A stretch of DNA of 64,000 nt from a virus (Duplodnaviria > Heunggongvirae > Uroviricota > Caudoviricetes): IMG/VR virus record IMGVR_UViG_3300036985_002287, positions 30,613-94,612 of that record. One strand, written 5' to 3'. Under the pieces are notes generated by a model. The model had not been told where the DNA came from, ran no database searches, and was given only the letters and a program-made list of their open reading frames with translations. Below, in pieces: positions 7,698 through 63,303 of this stretch (positions are counted from its first letter, which is position 1; each line of letters starts with the position of its first letter). The translations under genes were made by a program, and so were the position numbers.

Positions 7698-8866
7698 GGT
7701 GTCTTATCGAACTGTCCTATGTTATAAAATCGAGAAAATATCGATTTTGTTGCAATTTTGTTACCTAGCGGATCTAAATCACAATACATGGCATCAATAT
7801 CATCCATCTCGGATGAATAATTATGGCGCCACGCTGCGATCGAATCTTTCAATTCTGGATGAGAATATAACCAGTAGTCCTTATCTTCTCTAAATACACT
7901 CTTAGGCTTCTCAGCCTGAAAGCGACTAAAATCCCAATCTTTATATATTATAGTACGAATAGCATGTTGCGCCAATTCTGCGGCAGCATGGGCTTGATCT
8001 TTTGTTTCTGTATCCCATTTTCTTTGAATGAGAGGTCTCATAGCAGGATTATTATTAAAATATTGGAATACTTGATAGGCCTGCTCGTACACTAATTCGG
8101 GCATATTGGGTGCCCAATAAAATAATTCTAATCCCTCTGTATTCTCGTGATAAGGTGTACTGACTGCAATTATACCATCATTAAATACCATACCAACATC
8201 ACCTTCGTCGTCGGCTACTACAATCGGTTTATCGACCCCCCATATCTCTGCAACCCGCTTACCTGCAGATAACCACTTTTTCTCGTTTTCGGAGAATGTC
8301 TGCATACGCATAAGATTTGCTGCCGAGTGCAGATGCTGTTGTGTTTCAAATAGTGAATCCTTAAAGTATTCAGGACTACATTTATCGACCCATTCGGCAA
8401 CTTCGATTTTTATTTCTGGATGATTTTGTGCAAGCCATTCCAGATCTTTTTTAATCACAAGATCCCATTCACTCATGAAATTGTAGGCGCTCTTGTCATC
8501 TGATCTGACCCGGTGTAGTGGTTGCGCCTTCATGGGCCAGCGAACAAATATACAATCCAGTTTTATATTATTTTTTAAGAAAGTATTCAGAACAGTCCAG
8601 CTATCGCTACCTCCACTGTAATATAACACGAGGTAATCATATGAATCCCTTATCTGTTGAGCTCTTTCTTTATATAATGTTTCTAACGGAGTTTTTCCTA
8701 ATATAGATTTATCGAAATTTAACCATGTATTAAAGAAATAGGAATAGTGTACCCGAGTTTTACTTTTCGATGCCTGCACTAATGCTTCGATCTTATTATA
8801 GTATTTTACATACTTCCCGGCATCATTCTGTGCCCACCATTCTCCATTCTTGTATAAATGTTTCAT
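7694..8866 (-). CDS. PP-loop (SGGxDS) ATP pyrophosphatase-family protein
   Basis: LVLYYSGGSDSWTVL PP-loop motif about 85 aa from N-terminus; 390 aa; ATGA overlap with downstream TctC gene. Confidence 0.55.
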   Translation of the reverse strand: MKHLYKNGEWWAQNDAGKYVKYYNKIEALVQASKSKTRVHYSYFFNTWLNFDKSILGKTPLETLYKERAQQIRDSYDYLVLYYSGGSDSWTVLNTFLKNNIKLDCIFVRWPMKAQPLHRVRSDDKSAYNFMSEWDLVIKKDLEWLAQNHPEIKIEVAEWVDKCSPEYFKDSLFETQQHLHSAANLMRMQTFSENEKKWLSAGKRVAEIWGVDKPIVVADDEGDVGMVFNDGIIAVSTPYHENTEGLELFYWAPNMPELVYEQAYQVFQYFNNNPAMRPLIQRKWDTETKDQAHAAAELAQHAIRTIIYKDWDFSRFQAEKPKSVFREDKDYWLYSHPELKDSIAAWRHNYSSEMDDIDAMYCDLDPLGNKIATKSIFSRFYNIGQFDKTP

Positions 8867-10050
8867 TACGGTATAATCTCCACAAAATCGTATATTGATG
8901 CAGTAGTTACTAATTGTTTATCTTCTACCGATAATTTACTGAACCATTTTACTGGATCACCTTCTGCCATCCGTCTGCCTAAATATTTAACTAATTCGCA
9001 AACGGGCTCGACTACTTCTGTACGATAGCTATCATTCTTAAGGACATAAGCTATATGCAAATTCTTCATGCAGTTACCACGACACCATTCCACGGCTTCA
9101 CATCTATGGCATGGCATATCTGGATGCATCTGCAAAGGGCTATGTGTTAAAGTATTATCGGTAATGGAACCATGCTGCATATCGGGCACCCATGTCATAT
9201 CTGTACACGCAAATATTTTTCCATCAGGGCTTATATTAACTGCATTAGTTGAAGACCGACACTGTGCTTTACCCGAACATTGTGCAGCAGCCGCACCAGG
9301 CACCGCCATGTTACGCGCAATGCCCATTAATGGTACAATAGGGTAGACACCGTCATAGGAATAGAATCTATCTACCAATTGGTCGATCACTCGTTTTTTT
9401 GCTTCCATATGTTCGGGGTAATATACACCTTTTTGTTGAGCAAATTGAAAATGCACCCAATCAAATGTTTCTAATAATTTATCGAAAGCTTCAGAAGGTA
9501 AGTCTGGATCACACCAAGTAACTCTTGCAGTCAGTGTACCTGTTACCCTGGACTGTATTGCTCCTACATTTTTCATAATGTTAGCAAATACATTCTTACC
9601 ACGATACTTATTCGTTATTTGTTCGGTACCATCTATCGATATAAGGAAATTTGTAAAGCGTGATAGCACATCGTCATCTATTTTATTCAATAGTGTGCCA
9701 TTTGTTATAATTTGATATTCCGCAAAAGGAAACCGATCCATAACTTCTGTTATGAACGGCCTGTTCATTAACGGCTCGCCGCCAAAGAATGTGAAATAGA
9801 TATCCTTATCAGACAAGTGAGTATCAACAAATGTCTCTAATTCGTCTAAAGAATATGTAGGTTTTCCTTGAGATGAGAGAATATCTCCTTCGCCTAACAC
9901 ACAGTAAGAACAACTAAGATTGCACTTCAGTGTAGTAGATATCTGGATTTCAACTCTGTTACCACTAATTGCTGGCAGAATTACTGTATCCATGCTCTTT
10001 CTATTATCGATCAACTTCTGTTTTAATAAAATTTGCAAGTTTTGCAGCAT
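8866..10050 (-). CDS. radical SAM enzyme with C-terminal SPASM-like Cys cluster
   Basis: CNLSCSYC (CxxxCxxC), FGGEPLMN, ITNGTLL, C-terminal CxxC...C...C (CHRCEAVEWCRGNC); start may be ATG 9993 (MDTVIL). Confidence 0.8.
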   Translation of the reverse strand: MLQNLQILLKQKLIDNRKSMDTVILPAISGNRVEIQISTTLKCNLSCSYCVLGEGDILSSQGKPTYSLDELETFVDTHLSDKDIYFTFFGGEPLMNRPFITEVMDRFPFAEYQIITNGTLLNKIDDDVLSRFTNFLISIDGTEQITNKYRGKNVFANIMKNVGAIQSRVTGTLTARVTWCDPDLPSEAFDKLLETFDWVHFQFAQQKGVYYPEHMEAKKRVIDQLVDRFYSYDGVYPIVPLMGIARNMAVPGAAAAQCSGKAQCRSSTNAVNISPDGKIFACTDMTWVPDMQHGSITDNTLTHSPLQMHPDMPCHRCEAVEWCRGNCMKNLHIAYVLKNDSYRTEVVEPVCELVKYLGRRMAEGDPVKWFSKLSVEDKQLVTTASIYDFVEIIP

Positions 10051-15098: not shown

Positions 15099-15304
15099 TG
15101 TCTGAATTGAGGTTTATCGAATTTAGCTAAACTTGCCGCCACAATATCTTTTGCATCACTCTCTGACAAACTGTTTGTTTCTTCCCATTGTTCATTATCT
15201 TCGTTCCAAATAAGAATGCCACCTAGGTTATTGATTTTGTAGAAACCCGAAATAGTATGAACCAATACATATTGAAGAATGATTGCTTTGTGTGCTTGCA
15301 TCAT
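15095..15304 (-). CDS. hypothetical protein
   Basis: 69 aa ORF; ATGA overlap with GGDEF gene. Confidence 0.5.
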   Translation of the reverse strand: MMQAHKAIILQYVLVHTISGFYKINNLGGILIWNEDNEQWEETNSLSESDAKDIVAASLAKFDKPQFRH

Positions 15305-15978
15305 CTATTTATTACTTCTGGAGGTATTCCATGATATAGGTCGATACCGGACTTCTTAGCATAATACATGGCGCAATCAGCGTGATACATCAATGAAGTA
15401 TAATCTTCACCGTGAATTGGGTAAGTAGTCACTCCTACACTGAGACCAACACTAAGATTAGTTCCAGAAATCTCCATTGGCAATTCGACACTCTTTATTA
15501 GATTAATATATTCCACATCAGATAATTCGCCCTTGACTAATATAACAAATTCGTCGCCGCCCAGCCTAGCTGAAATATCACCTTTTCTTAAAGAATCCTG
15601 CATTCTTTCAGCTATGATCTTTAATACGTCGTCGCCCACACGATGCCCGTAGGTATCGTTTATGTATTTGAATTTACATAAATCTATCAATACTAGTTGA
15701 AATTTATCTCCTCGCTTAATAAATTTCTTAAATTCCTTATTAAAGGAACTTCGATTGAATAACCCTGTGAGTGCATCATATTTTGCAAGAGTGACCATTT
15801 CGGACCAGGAAGAATATTGTATAACCATAGGGATAAGTAATAAACATGATACCACAGCATCTACTAAATAATGTAGAACATGTGGCAACACGATTAGTTC
15901 ATGCATAAGATGGATGATAGATATACACCCGGAGAATGCTAGGCATAATACCGTAGCATGAATGATATTTGCTTTCAT
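15301..15978 (-). CDS. membrane-anchored GGDEF-domain diguanylate cyclase
   Basis: Two N-terminal hydrophobic helices; YDALTGLFNR, HRVGDDVL, RLGGDEFVIL (GGDEF) motifs. Confidence 0.8.
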   Translation of the reverse strand: MKANIIHATVLCLAFSGCISIIHLMHELIVLPHVLHYLVDAVVSCLLLIPMVIQYSSWSEMVTLAKYDALTGLFNRSSFNKEFKKFIKRGDKFQLVLIDLCKFKYINDTYGHRVGDDVLKIIAERMQDSLRKGDISARLGGDEFVILVKGELSDVEYINLIKSVELPMEISGTNLSVGLSVGVTTYPIHGEDYTSLMYHADCAMYYAKKSGIDLYHGIPPEVINR

Positions 15979-17869: not shown

Positions 17870-18084
17870 ACCATGTGATCCCTGAAGGTTCCTGCGGGGT
17901 ATTTTAATTTAAGAACTATTTCTAATTCCTCATCGTCAACACAGAATACAAATTGTGTAAGCGGTCCTACTCCTCTAGGATCTATCTCTATTTTTCTAAA
18001 TATAGGCACTCCTACCTCTTCTTTTAACCATTTTTCCTTCATCTGCGCTATTGACGAGATGCATGTATAAGACATAATTCGCAT
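17866..18084 (-). CDS. hypothetical protein
   Basis: 72 aa ORF. Confidence 0.5.
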   Translation of the reverse strand: MRIMSYTCISSIAQMKEKWLKEEVGVPIFRKIEIDPRGVGPLTQFVFCVDDEELEIVLKLKYPAGTFRDHMV

Positions 18085-18845
18085 TATACGCCCTTTATTA
18101 GTTGTAGCATATCGGGAATTCTAGTATGTGAATTCTTACTCCCTAACAATATATACATTCGTTTCCCTACATCAGAATTTAATATCATTACAAGACACCC
18201 TCCTGCTGGATTAGTAAATCCAGTTTTAGATAATTGTATATCAAACTGCGATGTTAGTGGATTCGTATTATGTAATTTAATCAATCTCTTATTTGTCCGT
18301 ATTTCGGCATTAGGCTGACCCGATATTTCACTAATTGTATTATTTAATGTAGCCACCATTAACAATTTCAATAAATCATGTGCTGTGCTAACATTGCCTT
18401 TATCTAATCCGGTGGGTTCTTGATATCGGGTGCTTGTCATTCCTAACTCTGCTGCCTTATCATTCATTTTCTCTACACAAGATGGCAAGTTGATACATAA
18501 TATTTGTGCTGCGAAATTATCCGATCTAACAAGTGCTAGTGTCAATAATTCACGTCTAGATAGATTATGTGTTGTCCTCGGTATGCTACTTTGTACTTGA
18601 CGCTTATTGGGTATAGATAAAGCTTCGGTCAAGTCTTGTTCGGACGAAAGAAGCGCAACCATTAATTTACTGATACTTGCTATAGGGCGTATTGTATCGC
18701 CGTCTTGTTCTTTCAGTATTGTGCCATCCTCTGTAGCCACAATATAACTTTTCGAACTAAAGGGTATTACTCGATGATTGCCTTTGGCCGCAGCATTACT
18801 TATGAGAAGAGCAGATGCACATATAGCTAGAATAAGAGTCTTCAT
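18084..18845 (-). CDS. secreted D-alanyl-D-alanine carboxy/endopeptidase (S11, PBP5/7-like)
   Basis: Signal peptide; SISK (SxxK), SDN, KTG active-site triad motifs in correct order. Confidence 0.75.
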   Translation of the reverse strand: MKTLILAICASALLISNAAAKGNHRVIPFSSKSYIVATEDGTILKEQDGDTIRPIASISKLMVALLSSEQDLTEALSIPNKRQVQSSIPRTTHNLSRRELLTLALVRSDNFAAQILCINLPSCVEKMNDKAAELGMTSTRYQEPTGLDKGNVSTAHDLLKLLMVATLNNTISEISGQPNAEIRTNKRLIKLHNTNPLTSQFDIQLSKTGFTNPAGGCLVMILNSDVGKRMYILLGSKNSHTRIPDMLQLIKGV

Positions 18846-23794: not shown

Positions 23795-24997
23795 TCATTT
23801 TTTCCTGTTTTGCGGTGAATGGCTATCTGCCTCATACCAAGCTGTCATACCGAACGGCGCAACCAATTTGCGACCGGGGTCTCCGTGAATAAGAAAGAGT
23901 GTATCACAGTAATCCGGGTCTCCCCAGGATCCGCATGGATATCCATCGGTCATCATAATGAATCTTTCAGGACAAATACCTTTCTCCTTCATGAATTTCC
24001 AATTACACATGAAGTCAGTCCCGCCTCCGCCCTTTATATCATACTGGTCGATATCGTCGAGCGTATCTGGCGTAAACTTTTGATAGTTATAAACCTTTGT
24101 ATCAAAAGTCCAAACTTCTAACTCAAAGTCCATGAACTGTTGCATAATACCTTTTGTTTCGGTTAGTAAATCACGCAGCATATCGTCACTCATAGAGCCG
24201 GAAGCGTCTACGCCTACAGCCGCTTTAACTTTGAAATCGTTCTTTGTAGCAGGCAGATATATGCCGCTTGCTTGCATCTTACGCGAGCAACGATCCCAGG
24301 TAAAATCTGCCTTTACCATAGACTGCAATTTCATATTAAGCACCTCTCTCCAATCCATCTGTGGCTCAACAAGATCCTTCAACAGGCGCCGAACACCTGC
24401 CGGTGTATGTCCGGCGCCTGCAGCCTTAGCCGCTTGCATAACAGCATTGCGAATTTCATCTGACAGAACACGTTGTTCTTCTTCTGTCATCGGCTCACCT
24501 TTGCCATCACCTGGTTCCAAGTGAATATCGAACTCGGGCCAATTGGAGTTAGGATCCTTAAGAAGCAGTTCATACACTTCTTCTGTACACATTCCTTTGT
24601 ACTTTTTATCGAAACATGCAGTTACCCCGGATGTTTTTGGATTAGGTAAAACACCGATGTGATGTTCGTCCAACTCGCAATTAATGACATAGTCAGCAGC
24701 AGCATTCCACATCTTTGGTTTGCGGCTACCTCGTCTGTCCATGTGGTCATATACGCAGTGTTCTACTTCGTGTCCTACCAGGAAGATGCACTCGGGTCGA
24801 TCGAGCTTGCTAATGAAGTCTCTGTTGTAATAGAAGTATCTACCGTCCGTCGCCGCGGTTTTACACCAAGGATCGTCTGTAGCATCCCTCAGAATCAGTC
24901 GTGTTGCAAGTGTTCCCCAAAATGGTTGTTGGAGAAGTAATGAGATTCGAGCCCTTGTCAATTGCTCCAATACTGCTTCGGCACTATTGTTAATCAT
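23795..24997 (-). CDS. VWA-domain protein with N-terminal HExxH metallopeptidase-like domain
   Basis: GHEVEHC (HExxH); MIDAS-like DASGSMSD; standard partner of MoxR ATPases. Confidence 0.7.
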   Translation of the reverse strand: MINNSAEAVLEQLTRARISLLLQQPFWGTLATRLILRDATDDPWCKTAATDGRYFYYNRDFISKLDRPECIFLVGHEVEHCVYDHMDRRGSRKPKMWNAAADYVINCELDEHHIGVLPNPKTSGVTACFDKKYKGMCTEEVYELLLKDPNSNWPEFDIHLEPGDGKGEPMTEEEQRVLSDEIRNAVMQAAKAAGAGHTPAGVRRLLKDLVEPQMDWREVLNMKLQSMVKADFTWDRCSRKMQASGIYLPATKNDFKVKAAVGVDASGSMSDDMLRDLLTETKGIMQQFMDFELEVWTFDTKVYNYQKFTPDTLDDIDQYDIKGGGGTDFMCNWKFMKEKGICPERFIMMTDGYPCGSWGDPDYCDTLFLIHGDPGRKLVAPFGMTAWYEADSHSPQNRKK

Positions 24998-25017
24998 TTA
25001 ATTCCTTTGTTGTATGT

Positions 25018-25046
25018 ATTATACATTTATACAGTTAAACAGTCAA
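25018..25046 (-). promoter_or_regulatory. promoter TTGACT-N17-TATAAT
   Basis: agtcaa 25041-25046; attata 25018-25023. Confidence 0.65.
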
Positions 25047-25050
25047 GTGG

Positions 25051-25072
25051 AAAAGGCCCTTGCGGGCCTTTT
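25051..25072 (-). terminator. intrinsic terminator (weak T tract)
   Basis: AAAAGGCCC-GCAA-GGGCCTTTT hairpin abutting MoxR stop. Confidence 0.5.
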
Positions 25073-26167
25073 TTAATCTTCCAGGATGTATTTACCGTAT
25101 TTTTCTTGGAATGTCTTGAACGTCTTCAGTTGCCGGTGACGAATAGGCAGGTTGTAATCACGTAGTGCAGTCTTAGCACCGAGCACAATCATTTCTGTCT
25201 GGAAATTGCTCATCATGTATGCAAAGAAGTGATCGATGCACTCATGCCATGTGTCCATATTGAACCCGTCTTCTTTTGCATTAGCCTTCGCAACCCATTC
25301 GTTCAGTGTGTAACACATAGAAATAGTCAGCGAATACATTGCGCTCAAGTCCTTAACATTAAGGGACTTTTCCTTACCCATCAGCACATCTTCCGACTTA
25401 GGCATGCGAGCCGAAATCTTTCTATGAGCACTAAACTCTGTTGCCAAGCCATCACCGACAGTGCCAGCAACCAGCGCCGTATTCATCGACTCAGGAATAT
25501 CATCGCTAATCAGTTGCGAAACGAATACCCAAGTACGCGGGGTAGCGAATGCCTTGTCCGGGCTCTTGCTGTCGAAGTTAAACAATTTTTGTTTGTGATG
25601 CGACAAGAAACCTACCACGTCTGGATGGATGCGGTTAGCGATTGCCCATTTTTGCCAATCTTCAAAGTTGGCCGCCATTTCCATGTGAACCAAACGATTA
25701 GCCAACGGACTTGGCATACGATATGTCACACCCTTGTCGCTATCCCTATTCCCTGCACAGACGATAGATACACCTTTTGGCAAGTGATATTCGCCGACGC
25801 GCCGATTAAGAATAAGCTGATATGCAGCAGCTTGAACGCTGGGCGGTGCAGCATTGATTTCGTCCAAGAAGAGAATGGCATTTGCCATATATGTGTCGGT
25901 AGGCAAGTCAGCAGGCTGTGCCCACTTCATTGTCTTTGACTCGGGATCGAAGTACGGAATACCTTTAATATCGGTAGGTTCCAATAACAGCAGACGCATA
26001 TCAATCACAGGGCGACCAGTTTCTTCACCGATCTCTGCAATCAATTCAGATTTACCAATACCAGGCGGTCCCCAAATCATTGCAGGACGACCTACCTTCA
26101 TACAACGAGTAAGAAGGGTGCGTACATCACGTGGACGTTCGACGCGGGAGGTATCAAGTGTAGCCAT
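25073..26167 (-). CDS. MoxR/AAA_5-family AAA+ ATPase
   Basis: Walker A GPPGIGKS, Walker B LFLDEINAA; 364 aa. Confidence 0.8.
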   Translation of the reverse strand: MATLDTSRVERPRDVRTLLTRCMKVGRPAMIWGPPGIGKSELIAEIGEETGRPVIDMRLLLLEPTDIKGIPYFDPESKTMKWAQPADLPTDTYMANAILFLDEINAAPPSVQAAAYQLILNRRVGEYHLPKGVSIVCAGNRDSDKGVTYRMPSPLANRLVHMEMAANFEDWQKWAIANRIHPDVVGFLSHHKQKLFNFDSKSPDKAFATPRTWVFVSQLISDDIPESMNTALVAGTVGDGLATEFSAHRKISARMPKSEDVLMGKEKSLNVKDLSAMYSLTISMCYTLNEWVAKANAKEDGFNMDTWHECIDHFFAYMMSNFQTEMIVLGAKTALRDYNLPIRHRQLKTFKTFQEKYGKYILED

Positions 26168-26207: not shown

Positions 26208-26236
26208 ATTATACGTTTATTGGCAGTATGTGTCAA
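26208..26236 (-). promoter_or_regulatory. perfect promoter TTGACA-N17-TATAAT
   Basis: tgtcaa 26231-26236; attata 26208-26213. Confidence 0.7.
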
Positions 26237-26240
26237 TTGG

Positions 26241-26570
26241 CTACTTTACGTGGCCTGCTAACAATTCCATAATCAATTTGCCTTCCATGTCTTCTTTGAA
26301 GGTTGGCCAAATTTGGTAGAGTCTATCTTCAGTGATAGGCACATAGCCTTTCTTGCGTTTGGAATTAACGAGCTTGTCCAACTCATACCCGGTGACGTCG
26401 GCCTTAAACTGCATAGCTTTGCCACGCGCTGCCCAAAATTTAGCACAATTCCAGCCGACACGCTTGGTCGCCCACTTGCGGGCATTGGGCGTCGGACGGT
26501 ACAAATATCCCCAGATTTTGTCATGATTATCTTCATTGCACCAGCCAATCCAGCCAAATTCAGCAGCCAT
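26241..26570 (-). CDS. hypothetical protein, possibly WGR-domain-like
   Basis: HDKIWGY...AKFWAARGKAMQFK...KLVNSKRKKGY loosely resembles the WGR pattern. Confidence 0.5.
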   Translation of the reverse strand: MAAEFGWIGWCNEDNHDKIWGYLYRPTPNARKWATKRVGWNCAKFWAARGKAMQFKADVTGYELDKLVNSKRKKGYVPITEDRLYQIWPTFKEDMEGKLIMELLAGHVK

Positions 26571-26598
26571 ATTGCACTCCTATCTATTGTATGCCTTA

Positions 26599-26627
26599 AT
26601 TATAGCACTAATAGTGGAACCTGTCAA
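26599..26627 (-). promoter_or_regulatory. perfect promoter TTGACA-N17-TATAAT
   Basis: tgtcaa 26622-26627; attata 26599-26604; AGGAG SD. Confidence 0.7.
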
Positions 26628-26634
26628 CAGGATA

Positions 26635-27099
26635 TTACACGGGCATTTTGCCGTCAATTAACCAAACATAGGTAGGATATGTTACCGTCTCTTCAATAAT
26701 GGTAGAAATAATATTCCAATTGCCGCCACCTAATCCGGCGCCAATTAAAGGGATATGTAATTCGGACACAACATCTTCTAAGAATGACACAGCATGATTG
26801 ATTTGCTCGAAGCAGGACTGTATTGCATCATAACTACAATTTCTTGTAGGCATGCCAAATCCGTCCTGCGTAATTGCATTCCATATGACAAGCTCGGCGG
26901 TAGGACAGAAAGGGTATGCAAAACCTAAATCGAGTCCTTCCTCTTCGTGGATAGTGACATAGTCGGTATACGCTCCGGGATATTTCCTCTTTACTGCTAA
27001 GGCAACACCGGAACCCATAACACCTTGTGCATTGCATCCGTGAACAATATGACCGGATGTCACATCAAGTAAATTGCCAGTTCTATAAATAAGTTTCAT
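26635..27099 (-). CDS. macro-domain protein (ADP-ribose binding/hydrolase)
   Basis: TGNLLD...HGCNAQGVMGSGVALAVKRKYP...IGAGLGGG; start at MKLIYRTG (1-nt overlap with upstream stop). Confidence 0.75.
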   Translation of the reverse strand: MKLIYRTGNLLDVTSGHIVHGCNAQGVMGSGVALAVKRKYPGAYTDYVTIHEEEGLDLGFAYPFCPTAELVIWNAITQDGFGMPTRNCSYDAIQSCFEQINHAVSFLEDVVSELHIPLIGAGLGGGNWNIISTIIEETVTYPTYVWLIDGKMPV

Positions 27100-27395
27100 T
27101 AAATCTTCCTTGTTGTATTTCGAAAATTGTTGTCCCAAACCGGATCAAGTAAAGGTTTAAATTTGGGATAGTATGCATCATGCAAATCGACGAGCGCATC
27201 TATTGCCAATACCGCATCAAATGGAAAACCTTGCCTATTTGGTCGATCAGAATATGTTAAGCTAGTTAATAACTCTCTGCCTGCCTTGTATCCCCAATGT
27301 AAACGCAATTTATTTTGTATATGCGGAAATTTTTCCAAACGCTCAATCAAATTGATTACTTCCTCGTTTTGATTCTTGTTTTGATCTTTTGTCAT
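27099..27395 (-). CDS. hypothetical protein
   Basis: 98 aa ORF. Confidence 0.5.
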   Translation of the reverse strand: MTKDQNKNQNEEVINLIERLEKFPHIQNKLRLHWGYKAGRELLTSLTYSDRPNRQGFPFDAVLAIDALVDLHDAYYPKFKPLLDPVWDNNFRNTTRKI

Positions 27396-27658: not shown

Positions 27659-27848
27659 CTTCTTGTATACTTTTCAGTATGCTAATTAGTTGTGGGATTG
27701 CTTTGCGGTCCATGTGAAACACACTATTAAATGGCATTCCTTTAACCTGCATCTTCAACACAGTATCGGACGCCCACACATCAGCATACCAAGACGGTTC
27801 AAACTTTCCCTGATGTGTAGTGTCATACTGAGTGATTGTGTGTTTCAT
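27651..27848 (-). CDS. hypothetical protein
   Basis: 65 aa ORF. Confidence 0.5.
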   Translation of the reverse strand: MKHTITQYDTTHQGKFEPSWYADVWASDTVLKMQVKGMPFNSVFHMDRKAIPQLISILKSIQEDE

Positions 27849-28627
27849 TTTATATTACAAGTATTGTTTAAATTTTGCATATCGGCGCATGTATATGCTT
27901 GATAAGAATCTTTTAAAATATCCGGCATATCGATGTACTCGACTCTTGCATTATACTCCTTTGCAATTGTACGAGCAACCAACTCAAAAGATGATGCCTG
28001 CCCTGTTCCCAGATTCCATAATCCACTTTTATTAATATTCAAAAAATCCAGATGAGTTTTTATTACTTTCTGGACTTGAATAAAATCTCTCATAAAATTT
28101 TCACTATTTTTAAATAACTTAATTACACCAGTTTCCTTAGCCTGCTTTGTAAATTTAAAATGTGGGCTTGCTTGATCGCCTTTATGTTCTTCACCTTCGG
28201 GCCCATAGACATTAAAATATCTAAATCCTTGAATAATATTGCCACCGGGATGATCACGCACATATCGTTCAAATAAGTATTTACTCCATGCATACGGAGT
28301 GCGAGGATCCAATCGGGCATCTTCCTTGAATGTGCTGTTTAGTCCGTAAACGCTTGCACTACTCGAATATTGAAAATTAACTCCGTATGTTTTACAAGCA
28401 TTATACAATTGACGACTAAAATCAAAATTTTGTCTCATTACCTTTTCTATATCTCTATCAGTTGTGCTACTGATTGCACCAATATGTATAACCCAATCTT
28501 GTTCCATAACACTAGGGAGATTACTCTCGCCCCATTCATAAGTTGACACAGAATGTCCTGCAGATTCTAGTGCGGTCAACATATGACCGCCTATAAATCC
28601 TTTATAACCAGTTAATATAATATTCAC
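27845..28627 (-). CDS. NAD-dependent sugar epimerase, HldD (ADP-glyceromanno-heptose 6-epimerase)-like, short form
   Basis: ILTGYKGFIGGH Rossmann; GAISSTT...FQYSSSASVYG resembles the HldD pattern GACSSTTE...YASSAATYG. Confidence 0.6.
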   Translation of the reverse strand: MNIILTGYKGFIGGHMLTALESAGHSVSTYEWGESNLPSVMEQDWVIHIGAISSTTDRDIEKVMRQNFDFSRQLYNACKTYGVNFQYSSSASVYGLNSTFKEDARLDPRTPYAWSKYLFERYVRDHPGGNIIQGFRYFNVYGPEGEEHKGDQASPHFKFTKQAKETGVIKLFKNSENFMRDFIQVQKVIKTHLDFLNINKSGLWNLGTGQASSFELVARTIAKEYNARVEYIDMPDILKDSYQAYTCADMQNLNNTCNIK

Positions 28628-28980
28628 TTCTGGCTATCTCCCGGCATAACACGATAATTATCTTCTACACTATCCGGTGTACTAACTTCCAGAATAGTGC
28701 CTGCTTCAAGACAGATAACTTGATGCGGAGATAGTGGTGGATTATGGTGTATCATCCCTGCTTCTAAAGTACATTCAAATATCTGTGCATTACTTGTCTG
28801 AATATATCTGACTAAGAACTTGCCACTCATGATACGCCATGTTTCTTCTTTAACTGAATGAAAGTGCATACTGAATCTAGAATCTTTATCGAAATGCATT
28901 AGTTTACTACAATATTTGTCATTAGATATCCAAATTTCTTCCGATCCCCAACCTTTTTTTACTCGGCCATTTAATCTCAT
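28624..28980 (-). CDS. cupin-fold protein (sugar isomerase/epimerase-like)
   Basis: WGSEEIW...MHFHSVKEETW...G pattern of small cupins; ATGA-coupled to the epimerase. Confidence 0.5.
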   Translation of the reverse strand: MRLNGRVKKGWGSEEIWISNDKYCSKLMHFDKDSRFSMHFHSVKEETWRIMSGKFLVRYIQTSNAQIFECTLEAGMIHHNPPLSPHQVICLEAGTILEVSTPDSVEDNYRVMPGDSQK

Positions 28981-29186
28981 ATATTACCTCTTCCTATTCT
29001 GCTGTAACCTAACTCACTCATTGTGTCACGCCGACCTTCTCGCTTGTCGTTTTCGTATTGTTGAATGACAAGCATGGCAAACTTTTCCAATTCTGATTCA
29101 CTAAAATTCCAGGGCTGTTTATGGTACTTTTCATAATCTCTTTGCCCGCCGGCCTTAAGAGTAAGTTGTCGAATTCGTTCATTCAT
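28977..29186 (-). CDS. MNE-paralog family member (divergent)
   Basis: MNERIRQLTLKAGG...KFAMLVIQQ; ATGAATGA junction with upstream paralog. Confidence 0.5.
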   Translation of the reverse strand: MNERIRQLTLKAGGQRDYEKYHKQPWNFSESELEKFAMLVIQQYENDKREGRRDTMSELGYSRIGRGNI

Positions 29187-29397
29187 CACTAACTCCAAAA
29201 TGTTCTAAAATAGAAGGCCGGACTAATCTTGCCTCACCGTGTGTCGCTGCATGATTACCAATGTCAGCACACTCCTGCACGATAAGTTCGGCAAACTTAC
29301 CAAGTTGGATCATGGCGAACTGATTGTCACCTTCTTGTGTGTGCTTGTCTGCATACGCATAGGCTTGCTTTTGCAGGGCTAAAAGTCGTTCATTCAT
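29179..29397 (-). CDS. MNE / FAELIVRE / HFGV paralog
   Basis: MNERLLALQKQ...FAELIVQECA...EHFGVSDE. Confidence 0.55.
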   Translation of the reverse strand: MNERLLALQKQAYAYADKHTQEGDNQFAMIQLGKFAELIVQECADIGNHAATHGEARLVRPSILEHFGVSDE

Positions 29398-29600
29398 TCT
29401 TCAACTCCGAAATGTTTAAACATCGCAACTACCCCTTCATGATCGTGCCCGCAAAACTCACCACATTCCCGAACAATCAACTCGGCGAACTTTTTCATCA
29501 CAGTAGAGTCCAGAGTATCTTTTGGATCGTACATATACACAGCATCACCCCACACGGCAATACCAGCCTGTTCAGCAAGTAGTCGAATTCGTTCGTTCAT
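29394..29600 (-). CDS. MNE / FAELIVRE / HFGVEE paralog
   Basis: MNERIRLLAEQAGI...FAELIVRECG...KHFGVEE. Confidence 0.55.
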   Translation of the reverse strand: MNERIRLLAEQAGIAVWGDAVYMYDPKDTLDSTVMKKFAELIVRECGEFCGHDHEGVVAMFKHFGVEE

Positions 29601-29770
29601 TCTTCTACTCCAAAGTGTTGTTTAATCACCAACTTATATTCAAGCGCCCGTGGATCAATTGGCGGCTCTACTTTTTCATGAACTAGTTGGTGTCTACCTT
29701 CAGTGTTTGTTACACCAAGTAATACACCATTATGATATACTTCCCATTCGTATCTATTTTCGTCAATCAT
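29597..29770 (-). CDS. 57-aa protein sharing only the HFGVEE tail
   Basis: MIDENRYEWEVYHNG...KQHFGVEE; ATGA overlaps at both ends; below track cutoff. Confidence 0.45.
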   Translation of the reverse strand: MIDENRYEWEVYHNGVLLGVTNTEGRHQLVHEKVEPPIDPRALEYKLVIKQHFGVEE

Positions 29771-29982
29771 TCTTCTACTCCAAAGTGTTCTCTTATAATC
29801 TCTGCACCAGAAATACCGTAATCATTAACACGCAGGTTTTTAACTTGTTCGGCACATTCCCGAACAATAAGTTCGGCAAACTTTTCTTGTTGTTCTACCC
29901 ACGCTTCACAATATTCTCTGCCGTGAAAATCTAAAAACTTAATATCAGCCTGCGTGGCAAGTTCTTTAATTAGTTCATTCAT
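29767..29982 (-). CDS. MNE / FAELIVRE / HFGVEE paralog
   Basis: MNELIKELATQADI...FAELIVRECA...EHFGVEE. Confidence 0.55.
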   Translation of the reverse strand: MNELIKELATQADIKFLDFHGREYCEAWVEQQEKFAELIVRECAEQVKNLRVNDYGISGAEIIREHFGVEE

Positions 29983-31357: not shown

Positions 31358-32581
31358 TTACTTAGAAGTCTTGCCCTTAGTGACAGACATATCAATACCA
31401 AGTTCTCGCGCAGTCTTAGCAGTGAGCATTTCAACAAGAGCAGCAGCACCGTTTCCGCCTTGGGCACTATTACCCATCACTACACTCGGAACCCAAGCGC
31501 CTTGATATTCACCCATTGCAGTTGCATAAGCCTTTGATACAGTTACATACGCTTCCAGCTTTGCATCCAAAGCACCGTCCGCGTTCATTCGCAGAGACTT
31601 TGCTTGTGCATCACCTTCACCACGAAGAATTTGTTCCTTCTTGTATTGTTCAGCAGCCTTTGCACCTAGCGTTGCCACAGCCACAGCCTTTTCAGCGAAA
31701 GCAATTTCCTTGGCATTCAGTGTTTCTTGTTCCCACTTTGCCTTAGCCGCAGTTGCCTTACCTTGTTGCTCAGTTGTGATCGCATCTTGTTCAGCTTTCT
31801 TTGCGTTGGCGATAGAGATTTGAACACCAGTTGTTGACTGTTGACGTTGCTTGATCTGGTCTTCAACGATCTGGTCGTACTTGATTTCGTTGATTGAGAC
31901 CGGCTGTAAAATGATGCCATACTTCGTAATCTGGGATTCAGATTCACGCATCGGCTGACCCTTGTCATTCATTGCAATCTGCACCACAGCCACTTGCTTA
32001 TCAGCACCAGTGATCGGATCCTTCTGCGTGACTGTGACAGTCTTTGTCAGATACGGACCGTGAATCAACTGATCGTCAATGTACTTCGGAATCTCAGGAC
32101 GCTTTTCAGCCGATGATTCAGTTGAACTCATTGTGGGTCCGACGTTGTAAATAACTTTCTGCATCGCCGGGCGAATCAATTGCTGCTCAATGGCGCCGAC
32201 TGATCCAAAGTCCTTGTGAAGCGCCACGATCTGTTCGTGCTTCAACGGCATCTGCCAGTTCACTGTTCCGGAGATGTTACCGTGACCACCGTCATTGAAG
32301 CGAGTGGAGATTGATTCATCAGTCGTTTTTCCCTGATCTTTCACGGAACTAAACGAGAACTGATCACGCCGTTGATACGTTGTAACTTTGCCGAACGCCT
32401 GGGCTTTCCAACCGGGTTCAGTAAAAGTATTCAGATCGCCGCCAAGTGCCTGAATCACCATGAGGTTCTTCGCATCAAGATTTTCCACCAGCATTGGCAG
32501 ACATATCAGAAGTGCGAAAAATGCAAGCCCTGATAGAGCGCCGACTAGAATTCGGCGCGGGGTAATTGTGGGGGTGTTCAT
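31358..32581 (-). CDS. SPFH/band-7 (prohibitin/flotillin-like) membrane protein
   Basis: N-terminal TM helix, SPFH-like core, C-terminal Ala/Lys/Glu/Gln coiled coil; start at MNTPT (AAGGA SD), alternative ATG 32602. Confidence 0.55.
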   Translation of the reverse strand: MNTPTITPRRILVGALSGLAFFALLICLPMLVENLDAKNLMVIQALGGDLNTFTEPGWKAQAFGKVTTYQRRDQFSFSSVKDQGKTTDESISTRFNDGGHGNISGTVNWQMPLKHEQIVALHKDFGSVGAIEQQLIRPAMQKVIYNVGPTMSSTESSAEKRPEIPKYIDDQLIHGPYLTKTVTVTQKDPITGADKQVAVVQIAMNDKGQPMRESESQITKYGIILQPVSINEIKYDQIVEDQIKQRQQSTTGVQISIANAKKAEQDAITTEQQGKATAAKAKWEQETLNAKEIAFAEKAVAVATLGAKAAEQYKKEQILRGEGDAQAKSLRMNADGALDAKLEAYVTVSKAYATAMGEYQGAWVPSVVMGNSAQGGNGAAALVEMLTAKTARELGIDMSVTKGKTSK

Positions 32582-32604
32582 GTAGTTTTTCCTTGGTAAC
32601 ATGA

Positions 32605-44576: not shown

Positions 44577-44900
44577 TTATACACCAGATGAGTCGCCCCA
44601 TGTATGCATATATTTAGATAGTCTTATCATCTTATTAACACGGGCTTTTTCTATACCAGAAGCGGTAACACCGAGATTCGCGTTAGTAACCATATCTACC
44701 AACGCCAATACATCTCCTAATTCCATTTCTAAATTTTCAAGATTAGTTGTTGTAGAAGCAGGGTTCTTACCCACTACACCAAATCGTTTAATTTTAGATG
44801 CTGCCTGAATTACTTCGGCACATTCTTCCTGAAGAATATTAAGACATTCTTCCTGATGATCATTTACTTGTTTCAAATTTTTTCTCCCAATTCCATGCAT
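44577..44900 (-). CDS. MazG-like nucleotide pyrophosphohydrolase
   Basis: CLNILQEECAEVIQAASKIKRFG...ELGDVLALV: EExxE/D helices of the small all-alpha MazG family. Confidence 0.6.
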   Translation of the reverse strand: MHGIGRKNLKQVNDHQEECLNILQEECAEVIQAASKIKRFGVVGKNPASTTTNLENLEMELGDVLALVDMVTNANLGVTASGIEKARVNKMIRLSKYMHTWGDSSGV

Positions 44901-45828
44901 GTGATATAATATCTTTTATATTATATTGAGGTTCCCAATGTAATATATTCTTAGCCTTATCTATACATGCCGTCAATATTGCAGGATCTCCTTTGCGAGG
45001 TGCAACATATTCATATATAGGCTCTTTACCAACTACTTCACCTGCATATTTAACTAGCTCTGTTAAACTTATGCCACCGGTACCACCACCTAAGTTAAAT
45101 ATTTCATTACTGAAACCGGCATTAAGGAATTCTATCGCCTGTACGTGACCTTCTGCTAAGTCAGACACATGAATATAGTCCCTAACACAAGTTCCGTCTT
45201 TTGTAGCATAGTTGTTACCGAATATTTGAAATACTTCATTATTCATTATTTTATTACATATAATAGGAATAACATGAGTAGCAGGGCGCTGTGTATATCC
45301 GAATCGACATTCTGGATCAGCACCTGCGGCATTAAAATATCTAAATGTGATATACTTGATACCATATGCTCTTGCATAATCCCTGATCATTAATTCTCCT
45401 GCTGTCTTTGACGATGCATAGGAATTTTCTGGATCATAATACATATCTTCTTTTAGATATAGAGCTCTGCCTTGCCTACCATATAAATTTCCGGTAGAAC
45501 TAAAGACGATATTTTTTATGCCTATAGCGACCATATGATCGAGCATAACCTGCATTTTTACCACATTATTCGTGTAATATTTAGCCGGCTCTGACAGGCT
45601 TTGCGGCACAATATGCTCCGCTGCCAGATGCACTATTGTATCAAATTTAGTTGTATTTGTTTTAATGAAGTCACAATAATCTGATTCAATAACTTCGCCT
45701 GGACCATTCCAGTTCTGTGTATTCTTATCCACAATAGTAATTTTGTGACCTTCTTCGTGTAATTTATATACTACTTGCGTACCTATAAATCCACAGCCTC
45801 CGGTAACTAGAATATTATGTCTTCTCAT
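44860..45828 (-). CDS. NAD-dependent sugar-nucleotide epimerase/dehydratase (GalE-like SDR)
   Basis: VTGGCGFIGTQV Rossmann, YASSKTAGE (YxxxK). Confidence 0.8.
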   Translation of the reverse strand: MRRHNILVTGGCGFIGTQVVYKLHEEGHKITIVDKNTQNWNGPGEVIESDYCDFIKTNTTKFDTIVHLAAEHIVPQSLSEPAKYYTNNVVKMQVMLDHMVAIGIKNIVFSSTGNLYGRQGRALYLKEDMYYDPENSYASSKTAGELMIRDYARAYGIKYITFRYFNAAGADPECRFGYTQRPATHVIPIICNKIMNNEVFQIFGNNYATKDGTCVRDYIHVSDLAEGHVQAIEFLNAGFSNEIFNLGGGTGGISLTELVKYAGEVVGKEPIYEYVAPRKGDPAILTACIDKAKNILHWEPQYNIKDIISHAWNWEKKFETSK

Positions 45829-46202: not shown

Positions 46203-46357
46203 ACAATCTCTTCGATAATACCTAATATCTCTGCAACTACAATCATTGTACCTGCAAAAAACAGATTTCCTGCAGCAAGACTACATCCTGCCACAATGCG
46301 TAATGCGCTCTTAACGAAACTAATTCGTTGATGTAATTTAGGATCTGGCTGTCTCAT
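46199..46357 (-). CDS. 52-aa hydrophobic peptide
   Basis: MRQPDPKLHQRISFVKSALRIVAGCSLAAGNLFFAGTMIVVAEILGIIEEIV; ATGA overlaps on both sides; below track cutoff. Confidence 0.45.
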   Translation of the reverse strand: MRQPDPKLHQRISFVKSALRIVAGCSLAAGNLFFAGTMIVVAEILGIIEEIV

Positions 46358-47142: not shown

Positions 47143-47143
47143 A

Positions 47144-63296: not shown

Positions 63297-63303
63297 GTTT
63301 ACC

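What the first reader, a model, noticed from the sequence alone, without database searches (positions are those of the whole stretch)
26241..27099. Macro-domain protein next to a possible WGR-like protein: ADP-ribosylation counter-defence candidate
ORF 26635-27099 has the macro-domain signature (NAQGVMGSGVALAVKRKYP...GAGLGGG). The gene immediately upstream (26241-26570) has its own perfect promoter and loosely resembles a WGR domain (KFW...G....F....KKGY), the nucleic-acid-sensing module of PARPs. Macro domains remove ADP-ribose from proteins or nucleic acids. They could reverse host ADP-ribosylating defences (DarT-like toxins, other ARTs) or degrade ADP-ribose-derived signals.
Basis: partly seen in the sequence, partly recalled or inferred. 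Interest (0 to 1): 0.5.

Follow-up and report, generated by a model that had tools for sequence, protein, structure and literature searches.

The report
Phage macrodomain hydrolase beside WGR-like protein
A jumbo-phage genome carries an ordinary ADP-ribose-removing macrodomain enzyme of the DarG/TARG1 class, probably used to undo host ADP-ribosylation of phage DNA. Next to it sits a small basic WGR-fold protein that is its neighbour only through lineage-specific gene order, so there is no sign of a two-part system.

Summary
Both ORFs are real, conserved genes on the minus strand, with dN/dS about 0.1.

**Macro protein, 26635-27099(-).** It is a bona fide macrodomain (Pfam 29.5 bits against a threshold of 22). 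It belongs to the ALC1/TARG1/DarG class: the best curated hits are the DarG models (PADLOC 4.6e-18), and the best structures are TaqDarG, BT1257, SCO6735, Poa1p and TARG1 (TM about 0.8). Its active site is of the SCO6735 type. Gln78 replaces the DarG/TARG1 lysine and Asn23 is retained. It is an orphan: it has no DarG C-terminal domain and there is no DarT nearby. Phage orphan macrodomains that neutralise DarT2 are already known (PhiKZ AdfM). Homologues occur in more than 2,100 phage records.

**109-aa protein, 26241-26570(-).** It is a divergent WGR-fold protein.
- 24 of 129 relatives give sub-threshold Pfam WGR hits.
- 70 of 129 carry a literal WG[R/K]xG motif.
- The Atu_ph07 homologue is named a WGR protein in UniProt.

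The window copy itself gives no WGR hit and reads WAARG. It has its own perfect sigma70 promoter.

**Pairing.** This is not supported. The spacing varies from 65 bp to 6 kb within one phage lineage, and distant WGR-like genes share no neighbours.

**Verdict.** A new member of known kinds, of low to moderate interest.

The parts
26635..27099 (-). Macro-domain protein, 154 aa: an orphan macrodomain of the DarG/TARG1/SCO6735 (ALC1-like) class. Key residues: N23, the GVMGSG loop (26-31), Q78 at the position of the catalytic Lys of DarG/TARG1, and the GAGLGGGNW loop (120-128).
   Evidence: Pfam PF01661, E 7.8e-7, 29.5 bits against a threshold of 22. PHROG 335, E 8.5e-37. PADLOC DarG, E 4.6e-18. NCBIfam antitoxin_DarG, E 2e-14, N-terminal 135 profile positions only. 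AF2 pLDDT 90.3. Foldseek top hits TaqDarG 5m3e, BT1257, Poa1p, SCO6735, MtbDarG and TARG1, TM 0.78-0.84. Active-site alignment.
26241..26570 (-). Stand-alone WGR-like protein, 109 aa, pI 9.4. A beta-sheet plus helix WGR core (about residues 4-78) is followed by two C-terminal helices (81-105). The motif here is degenerate (FWAARGK) where most of the family has FWGRRGK.
26599..26627 (-). Perfect sigma70-type promoter (TTGACA-17-TATAAT with an extended -10 TG) in the 64-bp gap between the macro stop and the WGR-like start. It makes the WGR-like gene its own transcription unit.
   Evidence: An equivalent strong promoter (10-12 of 12 matches), 23-37 nt before the start codon, is kept only in the closest relatives L001, L002 and L005-L010.
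26208..26236 (-). A second perfect sigma70-type promoter, just after the WGR-like stop codon. It drives the MoxR-like AAA gene, so the WGR-like gene is bracketed by two promoters.
27099..27395 (-). 98-aa ORF of unknown function. Its stop codon overlaps the macro start (TAATG), so the macro gene is translationally coupled to it and belongs to the upstream multi-gene unit (epimerase, 65 aa, 83 aa, 98 aa, macro).
   Evidence: Sequence and ORF list. No Pfam, PHROG, PADLOC or NCBIfam hit. Found upstream of the macro gene in L005 and in other samples of the same phage (L047, L048).
23795..26167 (-). Syntenic context, not part of the finding: a MoxR-like AAA ATPase (25073-26167) and a DUF2201 metallopeptidase-vWA protein (23795-24997). 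This is the chaperone pair already described for group 2.2 jumbo phages.
   Evidence: Pfam and PHROG hits. AAA is 72-99% identical across L001-L029 and always lies downstream of the WGR-like gene. Described in PMC7824862.

Best explanation
These are two independent accessory genes in the sigma70-promoter-rich (probably early) region of an uncultured jumbo phage.

**(1) The macro protein.** It is an orphan, single-domain ADP-ribosyl hydrolase of the ALC1-like macrodomain class (TARG1, DarG, SCO6735). It binds the ADP-ribose moiety through its two glycine-rich loops. It uses the SCO6735-type active site, in which Gln78 is positioned by Asn23, in place of the Lys of DarG/TARG1. The most likely job is to strip ADP-ribose from base-modified nucleic acid. 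The prime candidate is thymine-ADP-ribose placed on phage ssDNA by host DarT2-type toxins. That would make it an antitoxin mimic, like PhiKZ AdfM. Activity on glutamate-linked protein ADP-ribose, as shown for SCO6735 and TARG1, is also possible.

**(2) The 109-aa protein.** It is a basic, stand-alone WGR-fold protein with a two-helix C-terminal extension. It is made from its own consensus promoter and most likely binds nucleic acid: DNA ends or nicks, as PARP WGR domains do, or DNA as a small regulator. It works independently of the macro protein.

**Shown:** domain identities, class, active-site residues, fold, promoters, synteny pattern.
**Inferred:** substrate, counter-defence role, nucleic-acid binding.
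For: **Macro protein**
- Pfam Macro scores above threshold.
- The only PADLOC hit is DarG (4.6e-18). The best NCBIfam hit is antitoxin DarG, covering its macrodomain part only.
- Best PDB sequence matches are SCO6735, BT1257, TaqDarG, MtbDarG, Poa1p and TARG1. The same set tops the fold search at TM about 0.8.
- In the alignment, Q78 matches SCO6735 Q85, TARG1 K84 and DarG K80. N23 matches SCO6735 N27. Both are invariant among 34 phage homologues.
- In SCO6735, the Q85A mutation abolishes and N27S nearly abolishes thymine-ADPr-DNA hydrolysis. SCO6735 also rescues cells from DarT toxicity (PMC9411070).
- PhiKZ AdfM is 26% identical (E 2e-8). It removes DarT2 marks from DNA, and its N23A mutant is impaired (PMC13309987).
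- No DarT2 homologue lies in the window or in the related loci, so the gene is an orphan.

**WGR-like protein**
- Fold and family evidence.
- pI is 9.4. The family median is 9.0, and 106 of 129 members exceed 8.
- In PARP2, the WGR Trp (W151) stacks on the ribose at the 5' DNA end and Y201 contacts the 5'-phosphate (PMC6294510). The family's near-invariant residues include the motif Trp (W46) and the KGY Tyr (Y76).
- WGR proteins in jumbo phages have been read as DNA-binding regulators (PMC7824862).

**Independence of the two genes**
- Promoters lie between and after them.
- Macro-to-WGR spacing ranges from 65 bp to about 6 kb in 23 lineage loci.
- No neighbour is shared among 17 distant WGR-like loci.
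- Macro homologues occur in 2,126 phage records; WGR-like homologues of the window protein occur in 2, both Atu_ph07.
Against: **Macro protein**
- There are no biochemical data, and the host and its defence systems are unknown.
- It lacks the two lysines that position DNA in SCO6735 (K34 becomes S30, K89 becomes G82). It has Gly21 where SCO6735 has Val25.
- It is acidic (pI 4.7), unlike SCO6735 and DarG. However, the validated AdfM is also acidic (pI 5.05).
- The Gln-type mechanism has been characterised in only one enzyme.
- Poa1p is an equally good structural match. Relatives sit near RNA-repair genes in some phages.

**WGR-like protein**
- The window copy gives no Pfam WGR hit. The best family member scores 20.5 bits, below the 22-bit cut-off.
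- The family profile finds no PARP WGR in the PDB by sequence, and 2ra8 only at E 0.53.
- hhalign against the single PARP1 WGR sequence is not significant (probability 0.8%).
- The window copy has WAARG instead of WGRxG.
- Residue equivalence to PARP2's DNA-contact residues is inferred from motif order, not from a printed structural alignment.
Confidence: 0.5

Rival explanations
1. The macro protein works on soluble ADP-ribose derivatives rather than on modified DNA. It would act as an ADP-ribose-1''-phosphate phosphatase (Poa1p-like) or an O-acetyl-ADP-ribose deacetylase. The purpose would be to clear by-products of NAD-dependent RNA repair, or to destroy ADP-ribose-derived immune signals or toxins.
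For: - PHROG 335 is annotated 'phosphatase'.
- Yeast Poa1p is among the best sequence and fold matches. His20 aligns with Poa1p H23.
- RtcB RNA ligase lies within a few kb of the macro gene in L001, L002 and L004.
- The homologue in Salmonella phage 7t3 sits next to a CCA-adding enzyme/2',3'-cyclic phosphodiesterase and a Nudix hydrolase.
- Iyer et al. proposed exactly these roles for jumbo-phage Macro domains (PMC7824862).
Against: - Poa1p S30 aligns with Val27 here.
- The curated profile hits are to DarG, not to phosphatase families.
- No RtcB, Nudix, Tpt1 or NAD-salvage gene was found among the window ORFs scanned.
- RtcB ligation leaves no 2'-phosphate, so it generates no ADP-ribose-1''-phosphate (established biochemistry).
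Confidence: 0.2
2. The macro protein removes ADP-ribose from proteins. The targets would be either phage proteins modified by host ADP-ribosyltransferase defences, or host or phage proteins modified by the phage's own Alt/Mod-like transferases. In the second case it acts as the eraser of a phage-controlled modification.
For: SCO6735 and TARG1, the closest characterised Gln-type and class relatives, both hydrolyse glutamate-linked protein ADP-ribose (PMC9411070). Jumbo phages commonly encode ARTs (PMC7824862).
Against: No ART or PARP catalytic domain was detected in any scanned ORF of this 64-kb window. The TARG1 Lys/Asp dyad used for protein substrates is absent, with Q78 and G124 in its place. 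The rest of the phage genome was not seen.
Confidence: 0.15
3. The WGR-like protein senses nucleic acid or lesions and works together with the macro hydrolase as a two-gene ADP-ribosylation counter-defence unit.
For: - The genes are 64 bp apart here, and about 100 bp apart in L006.
- Both stay in the same order and orientation within one lineage in 23 of 24 informative loci.
- A basic DNA-binder (pI 9.4) next to an acidic enzyme (pI 4.7) would be complementary.
- In PARPs, the WGR domain couples DNA sensing to ADP-ribosylation chemistry.
Against: - A perfect promoter separates the genes, and another follows the WGR-like gene.
- In most lineage members, 1.6-6 kb of other genes (AAA, Cpn10, PspA and others) intervene.
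- L007 has 10 kb of upstream sequence and no macro gene.
- 17 distant WGR-like loci share no neighbour family, and only 2 have any macro gene within 10 kb.
- No Macro-WGR fusions were seen; the only longer family members are a tandem WGR-like duplicate and an N-terminal extension without a domain.
- Macro homologues occur in more than 2,100 phage records, while tblastn with the window's WGR-like protein finds a relative only in Atu_ph07 (2 records).
Confidence: 0.07
4. The WGR-like protein is part of, or a regulator of, the MoxR-AAA / metallopeptidase-vWA chaperone pair that follows it. It would not be a free DNA-binding protein.
For: The MoxR-like AAA gene lies directly downstream of the WGR-like gene in essentially all lineage loci. 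In the more distant L030 (AAA 52% identical, WGR-like 43% identical) the two are again neighbours, in reversed order.
Against: - Each gene has its own promoter.
- 16 of the 17 distant WGR-like loci (L031-L046) have no AAA homologue within 10 kb.
- In Atu_ph07 the two genes are about 57 kb apart.
- PA5oct-type phages have the AAA gene (54% identity), but no WGR-like match was found there.
Confidence: 0.08

Closest known systems
AdfM (PhiKZ gp104), the phage orphan macrodomain that counters DarTG2 (PMC13309987)
   Same: A single-domain, phage-encoded, acidic macrodomain of about 155-160 aa from a jumbo phage. Same ALC1/DarG-like class. The active-site Asn23 is conserved, and there is no cognate toxin. 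Pairwise identity is 26%, E 2e-8.
   Different: AdfM keeps the DarG-type catalytic Lys (FPTKDNW), whereas this protein has Gln (AITQDGF). The phage lineage is different (not a chimallivirus; no evidence of a phage nucleus). Activity is untested here.
SCO6735 (Streptomyces coelicolor) and BT1257: Gln-type ALC1-like macrodomains (PDB 5e3b, 2fg1)
   Same: Best PDB sequence matches (E about 3e-10). They share the Gln at the catalytic-Lys position, the Asn that positions it, His20 (SCO6735 H24) and the GxGLxGGxW loop. SCO6735 hydrolyses thymine-ADPr DNA, uracil-ADPr RNA and Glu-ADPr protein, and it antagonises DarT.
   Different: Only about 28% identity. The DNA-positioning Lys34 and Lys89 are missing, and Gly replaces Val25. 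The protein is acidic rather than basic, and phage-encoded rather than chromosomal.
DarG antitoxin (DarTG2) macrodomain (PDB 5m31/5m3e, 5m3i; NCBIfam NF048014; PADLOC DarG)
   Same: Best curated-profile and fold match. Same class and the same ADP-ribose-binding loops.
   Different: It lacks the catalytic Lys80 (Gln78 instead), the C-terminal DarT-binding domain (only profile positions 3-135 of 338 are matched) and an adjacent darT gene. The score of 53.6 bits is far below the 250-bit equivalog cut-off.
TARG1/OARD1 and yeast Poa1p
   Same: Same fold class (TM 0.78-0.87).
   Different: The TARG1 K84/D125 dyad is replaced by Q78/G124. Poa1p S30 is not conserved.
WGR domain (Pfam PF05406): PARP1/2/3 WGR, the bacterial MolR-like WGR (2ra8), and Atu_ph07 AUZ95089.1 / A0A2L0UZX9
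   Different: It is a stand-alone 100-110-aa protein with a conserved extra two-helix C-terminal extension, and it has no PARP, MolR or ligase partner domain. All members tested fall below Pfam's 22-bit threshold. The window copy has a degenerate WAARG motif.

Membership tests
Macro domain (Pfam PF01661) | Profile score above Pfam's gathering threshold | tested here: met
   29.5 bits against a threshold of 22, E 7.8e-7, profile positions 1-113 of 118.
Macro domain (Pfam PF01661) | Macro fold with the two glycine-rich ADP-ribose/phosphate-binding loops | tested here: met
   AF2 pLDDT 90.3. TM 0.78-0.84 to solved macrodomains. The GVMGSG and GAGLGGG loops are invariant or nearly so.
ALC1-like (TARG1/DarG/SCO6735) macrodomain class | Closest sequence and structure neighbours are members of this class rather than MacroD, PARG or viral nsP3 types | tested here: met
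   The top 17 Foldseek hits are DarG, BT1257, Poa1p, SCO6735 and TARG1; nsP3 macrodomains follow at TM about 0.64. The phmmer ranking agrees.
TARG1 | Catalytic Lys84/Asp125 dyad | tested here: not met
   Q78 and G124 occupy the aligned positions.
DarG antitoxin (DarTG2) | Catalytic Lys (TaqDarG K80) | tested here: not met
   Gln78 aligns with K80.
DarG antitoxin (DarTG2) | C-terminal DarT-binding domain and full-length equivalog score | tested here: not met
   Only 154 aa. It matches profile positions 3-135 of 338 and scores 53.6 bits against a cut-off of 250.
DarG antitoxin (DarTG2) | Adjacent darT toxin gene | tested here: not met
   tblastn with P. aeruginosa DarT2 finds nothing in the window (E<=10) or in the 46 related loci searched (L001-L046; E<=1). 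Divergent DarT1-type toxins were not tested.
SCO6735-type (Gln-type) hydrolase | Gln at the catalytic-Lys position, held in place by an Asn (SCO6735 Q85 and N27) | tested here: met
   Q78 and N23 are invariant in 34 homologues. Their roles are taken from PMC9411070.
SCO6735-type (Gln-type) hydrolase | DNA-positioning Lys34/Lys89 and Val25 | tested here: not met
   S30, G82 and G21 occupy the aligned positions. The Val25 role is backbone-mediated, so the Gly substitution is inconclusive on its own.
AdfM-like phage anti-DarT2 factor | Removes DarT2-made ADP-ribose from DNA and rescues cells from DarT2 toxicity | not testable with these tools
   Only homology is available: 26% identity and a conserved N23.
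WGR domain (Pfam PF05406) | Profile score above the gathering threshold (22 bits) | tested here: not met
   The window protein has no WGR hit at E<=0.1. The best relatives score 20.5 bits (P0186) and 19.8 bits (Atu_ph07). WGR is the only recurrent family: 8 of 46 and 24 of 129 members.
WGR domain (Pfam PF05406) | WGR fold (antiparallel sheet plus helix) | tested here: met
WGR domain (Pfam PF05406) | Conserved W-G-R motif and the C-terminal K..KGY motif | tested here: inconclusive
   The family consensus is FWGRRGK / K.KGY, and 70 of 129 members have WG[RK]xG. The window copy reads FWAARGK but keeps KKGY.
WGR domain (Pfam PF05406) | Nucleic-acid (DNA break) binding | not testable with these tools
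   Only a basic pI and conservation of the motif Trp and Tyr are available. [quoted passage not shown]

The most novel reading that the evidence does not exclude
The stand-alone WGR-plus-two-helix proteins form a widespread but uncharacterised phage family (335 cluster representatives). They would act as early-expressed binders of DNA ends or nicks. In this lineage they would cooperate with the orphan Gln-type macrodomain: the WGR-like protein would mark discontinuities or ssDNA regions of replicating phage DNA and recruit or stimulate the acidic hydrolase there. That would be a split, PARP-inverted 'sensor plus eraser' pair for repairing ADP-ribosylated phage DNA.
Probability: 0.06. Interest if true: 0.6.

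Novelty: new member of a known kind. Interest (0 to 1): 0.25.

Why it matters
If the macro protein does reverse DarT2-type DNA ADP-ribosylation, it would extend the recently shown phage 'antitoxin-mimic' strategy (AdfM) in two ways. It would reach a different, uncultured jumbo-phage lineage. It would also reach the Gln-type active site, so far characterised only in SCO6735. That in turn would suggest that the very large PHROG 335 family (more than 2,000 phage genomes) is a general anti-ADP-ribosylation tool.

The WGR-like family is a modest annotation gain. About 100-aa phage proteins currently labelled hypothetical can be described as divergent stand-alone WGR-fold proteins.

Neither point overturns current understanding. 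The supposed two-gene module, which would have been the interesting part, is not supported.

Tried and rejected
1. **Nucleotide identification of the phage.** Megablast of 3.7 kb against 50,697 phage records gave no match. Only protein-level relatives were found: the PA5oct group, 54% identity on the AAA protein.
2. **Direct profile proof of WGR.** The close-family profile A1 found nothing in the PDB. The wide-family profile A2 gave WD40 hits, which I reject as repeat-summing artefacts because every single stretch has an individual E above 10. 2ra8 appeared only at E 0.53.
3. **hhalign of A2 against the PARP1 WGR sequence.** I recalled this sequence from memory and checked it against the PDB. 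The result was not significant (probability 0.8%). It did align FWAARGK with SWGRVGT.
4. **AFDB50 fold search.** The library was unavailable.
5. **Conserved partner of the WGR-like gene.** I clustered same-strand ORFs within 4 kb in 17 distant loci. Nothing was shared except the gene itself.
6. **Informative domain fusions.** The longer family members are a tandem WGR-like duplicate (P0238) and an N-terminal extension without a domain (P0280).
7. **Using the acidic pI of the macro protein against a DNA substrate.** Rejected, because the validated AdfM is equally acidic.
8. **Phage-encoded DarT, ART or PARP.** None was found by tblastn or in Pfam scans of the macro-locus ORFs and all other ORFs of at least 150 aa. 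Most smaller ORFs were not scanned.
9. **tblastn of a distant WGR-like member (P0186) against phage isolates.** No match.
Full report
**What is there**

The region lies in a 64-kb stretch in which almost every gene is on the minus strand. In transcription order the locus reads:
- NAD-dependent epimerase (28627-27845);
- three small ORFs of 65, 83 and 98 aa;
- the 154-aa macro protein (27099-26635);
- a 64-bp gap;
- the 109-aa protein (26570-26241);
- a MoxR-like AAA ATPase (26167-25073);
- a DUF2201 metallopeptidase-vWA protein (24997-23795).

The macro ATG at 27099 overlaps the stop of the 98-aa ORF (TAATG). This start is the one used by homologues and by independent gene callers in other samples of the same phage.

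The gap before the 109-aa gene holds a perfect TTGACA-N17-TATAAT promoter with an extended -10, followed by AGGAG and the ATG. A second perfect promoter follows the 109-aa stop codon. The window contains nine such perfect promoters, all on the minus strand and all within 1-27 kb, against 0.10 expected by chance.

Both genes are under purifying selection. dN/dS is 0.09 for the 109-aa gene against L006, and about 0.10-0.14 for the macro gene, with dS close to saturation.

**The macro protein**

It passes Pfam's Macro threshold (29.5 bits against 22) and matches PHROG 335 at 8.5e-37.

Among defence-system profiles its only hit is DarG (PADLOC, 4.6e-18). Among NCBI naming models the best hit is the DarG antitoxin equivalog. 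That match covers only the macrodomain part (profile positions 3-135 of 338) and scores 53.6 bits against a cut-off of 250.

By sequence, the best solved relatives are SCO6735, BT1257, the Thermus and M. tuberculosis DarG macrodomains, Poa1p and TARG1. An AlphaFold model (pLDDT 90.3) finds the same set at TM 0.78-0.84, ahead of the viral nsP3 macrodomains. The protein therefore belongs to the ALC1-like class.

I aligned it with TARG1, whose sequence I recalled from memory and verified as identical to PDB 2lgr. I added the PDB segments printed. The alignment shows:
- Gln78 sits where TARG1 has Lys84 and TaqDarG has Lys80.
- Gly124 sits where TARG1 has Asp125.
- Asn23 sits where SCO6735 has Asn27.
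- Gln78 and Asn23 are invariant in 34 phage homologues.

This is the SCO6735 arrangement. In that enzyme, Q85A abolishes and N27S nearly abolishes hydrolysis of thymine-linked ADP-ribose on DNA. SCO6735 also rescues cells from DarT and removes glutamate-linked protein ADP-ribose (PMC9411070). SCO6735, DarG and TARG1 also remove uracil-linked ADP-ribose from RNA, whereas other hydrolase families do not (PMC13036486).

The phage protein differs from SCO6735 in three ways. It lacks the two lysines that position DNA (S30 and G82 here). It has Gly at the Val25 position. It is acidic (pI 4.7).

The acidity is not informative. PhiKZ gp104 (AdfM) is a phage orphan macrodomain shown to strip DarT2 marks from DNA and to rescue cells from DarT2. 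Its pI is 5.05. AdfM is 26% identical to the window protein (E 2e-8) but keeps the DarG-type lysine.

No DarT2 homologue is encoded in the window or in the related loci searched. No ART or PARP domain was found in any window ORF I scanned.

Homologues of the macro protein occur in 2,126 phage records. One example is Salmonella phage 7t3, whose copy is also Gln-type (AITQEYYG).

**The 109-aa protein**

On its own it gives no Pfam, PHROG, PADLOC, NCBIfam or PDB sequence hit.

It has 48 close relatives. A profile search finds 335 cluster representatives, nearly all stand-alone proteins of 90-130 aa.

Four independent lines point to a WGR domain:
1. **Recurrent Pfam hits.** PF05406 WGR is the only family that recurs when the relatives are scanned: 8 of 46 close members and 24 of 129 distant ones. 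No other family is hit by more than 3 members (close set) or 2 (distant set). Nine of ten hand-picked members have WGR as their top hit, in one register (profile positions about 12-78 of 79). The best is 20.5 bits, E 5.4e-4. All are below the 22-bit threshold.
2. **Motifs.** The wide-family consensus reads DKvWG ... FWGRRGK.LQ.K ... K..KGY. 70 of 129 members contain a literal WG[R/K]xG. The window copy reads FWAARGK.
4. **Viral structures.** In BFVD, the neighbours include the Atu_ph07 homologue, named 'WGR domain-containing protein', and two uncultured-phage proteins named WGR and WGR_MMR_like. The Atu_ph07 protein is 36% identical to the window protein and scores 19.8 bits on Pfam WGR.

Against this:
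- Family profiles do not find PARP WGR domains in the PDB by sequence.
- hhalign against a single PARP1 WGR sequence is not significant.

My conclusion is that the family is a divergent WGR-fold family with an extra conserved two-helix C-terminal extension. Strict Pfam membership is not met.

The protein is basic (pI 9.4). The family median is 9.0. The family's most conserved residues include the motif Trp (W46) and the KGY Tyr (Y76). [quoted passage not shown] The residue equivalence is an inference from motif order.

Iyer et al. had already noted WGR-domain proteins in a few jumbo phages and read them as DNA-binding regulators (PMC7824862).

**Are the two genes a unit?**

I fetched 4 loci by exact-protein look-up and 42 from IMG/VR and mapped the neighbours by tblastn.

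Twenty-nine loci belong to one jumbo-phage lineage (AAA protein 72-99% identical; contigs up to 385 kb). In that lineage the order macro ... WGR-like ... MoxR AAA ... DUF2201 is conserved. The macro-to-WGR spacing, however, runs from 65-100 bp (the window and L006) through 0.4-0.7 kb (L023, L005) to 1.6-6.3 kb in the rest. The intervening genes include another AAA protein, Cpn10 and PspA. L007 has 10 kb of upstream sequence and no macro gene.

In five lineage members, the macro gene upstream of the WGR-like gene is a different, only 31%-identical, but still Gln-type macro gene.

The 17 more distant WGR-like loci share no neighbour family at all. Only two have any macro gene within 10 kb.

Promoters separate the genes here, and no fusions exist. 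The macro family is found in thousands of phage isolates, whereas tblastn with the window's WGR-like protein finds a relative in one isolate only, Atu_ph07 (two database records).

This is the pattern of lineage synteny in a variable accessory region. It is not the pattern of a functional pair.

**Mechanism and rivals**

Most likely (confidence about 0.5) the macro protein is an orphan antitoxin-like hydrolase that reverses base-linked ADP-ribosylation of phage nucleic acid by host DarT2-type toxins, using the SCO6735-type Gln/Asn site. The WGR-like protein is an independent small nucleic-acid-binding protein made from its own promoter.

The main rival for the macro protein is processing of soluble ADP-ribose derivatives in RNA repair or signal destruction. 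Its support comes from:
- the Poa1p similarity;
- RtcB near the macro gene in L001, L002 and L004;
- the CCA-enzyme and Nudix neighbours in phage 7t3;
- the proposal of Iyer et al..

Protein de-ADP-ribosylation is a second rival.

For the WGR-like protein, a role with the adjacent MoxR/vWA chaperone pair is conceivable, since L030 keeps the adjacency in reversed order. It is not supported in distant loci.

**Novelty**

All of the following are already described: macro domains in jumbo phages, phage orphan macrodomains as anti-DarT2 factors, the MoxR-vWA-peptidase pair, and WGR proteins in jumbo phages (PMC7824862, PMC13309987).

What is added here:
- assignment of this macro gene to the Gln-type (SCO6735-like) subgroup of the DarG/TARG1 class;
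- delineation of a sizeable stand-alone WGR-like phage family;
- rejection of the proposed two-gene module.

The finding is a new member of known kinds, and the interest is low to moderate.

Noticed in passing
window 899-26627, minus strand (9 sites: 899, 3104, 11160, 13509, 15070, 18852, 23206, 26208, 26599): There are nine perfect TTGACA-N16-18-TATAAT promoters, all on the minus strand and all in the first 27 kb, against 0.10 expected by chance. None lies in 27-64 kb. This suggests that a block of individually promoted, host-RNA-polymerase-dependent (early?) accessory genes ends near the macro gene.
   Followed up: partly
window 15301-15978 (-): A phage-encoded GGDEF diguanylate cyclase domain protein (Pfam E 6e-40). 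It could manipulate host c-di-GMP signalling.
   Followed up: no
window 28977-29982 (-): A tandem array of four or five small paralogous ORFs (57-73 aa). They share a KFAELIV(R/Q)EC motif and a C-terminal HFGVEE-type ending. They have no annotation.
   Followed up: no
L004 2082-2567, L012 2254-2811, L018 989-1567, L019 6809-7327, L029 5424-5912: In five members of the same phage lineage, the macro gene upstream of the WGR-like gene is a different macro gene, only about 31% identical to the window's. It still has the Gln-type site (NAYTQ, IG(M/C)GLAGG). This looks like gene replacement.
   Followed up: partly
window 23795-26167 (-): A MoxR-like AAA ATPase and a DUF2201 metallopeptidase-vWA protein, each with its own consensus or near-consensus promoter. 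PHROG 1314 labels the latter 'HNH endonuclease', which looks like a mis-annotation. The AAA protein is unusually conserved across the lineage (72-99% identity).
   Followed up: partly
P0238 (233 aa); L023 624-914; L045 (two copies): The WGR-like unit is sometimes duplicated. P0238 is a tandem fusion of two units, and L023 and L045 each carry a second divergent copy a few kb away.
   Followed up: no
window 27099-27395 (-): A 98-aa basic ORF, translationally coupled to the macro gene (TAATG overlap), with no detectable homology to any library. It is found upstream of the macro gene in L005 and in other samples of the same phage (L047, L048).
   Followed up: partly
window 44860-49985 (-) and 27845-28980 (-): Sugar-nucleotide modification genes: two NAD-dependent epimerase/dehydratases, a cupin, a glycosyltransferase-like protein, an ADH_N protein and a GFO/IDH/MocA oxidoreductase. 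They may serve DNA or surface glycan modification.
   Followed up: no
window 3935-5332, 8866-10050, 18084-18845, 31358-32602, 57625-58761, 61080-63828 (all -): Other cargo: an ATP-dependent DNA ligase, a radical SAM/SPASM enzyme, a D-Ala-D-Ala carboxypeptidase (S11), an SPFH/Band7 protein, a sigma70 region-4 protein, a ClpB-like double AAA protein and a DnaJ C-terminal domain protein. A family B DNA polymerase lies at 53368-56316.
   Followed up: no
alignment A2 against the PDB: The WGR-like family profile gives apparently significant whole-sequence E-values against designed and natural WD40 repeat proteins (6r60, 2ymu). The cause is summation of many weak repeats ('vWgv...W.r.Gq.lq'). This is an artefact to keep in mind when annotating the family.
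   Followed up: yes
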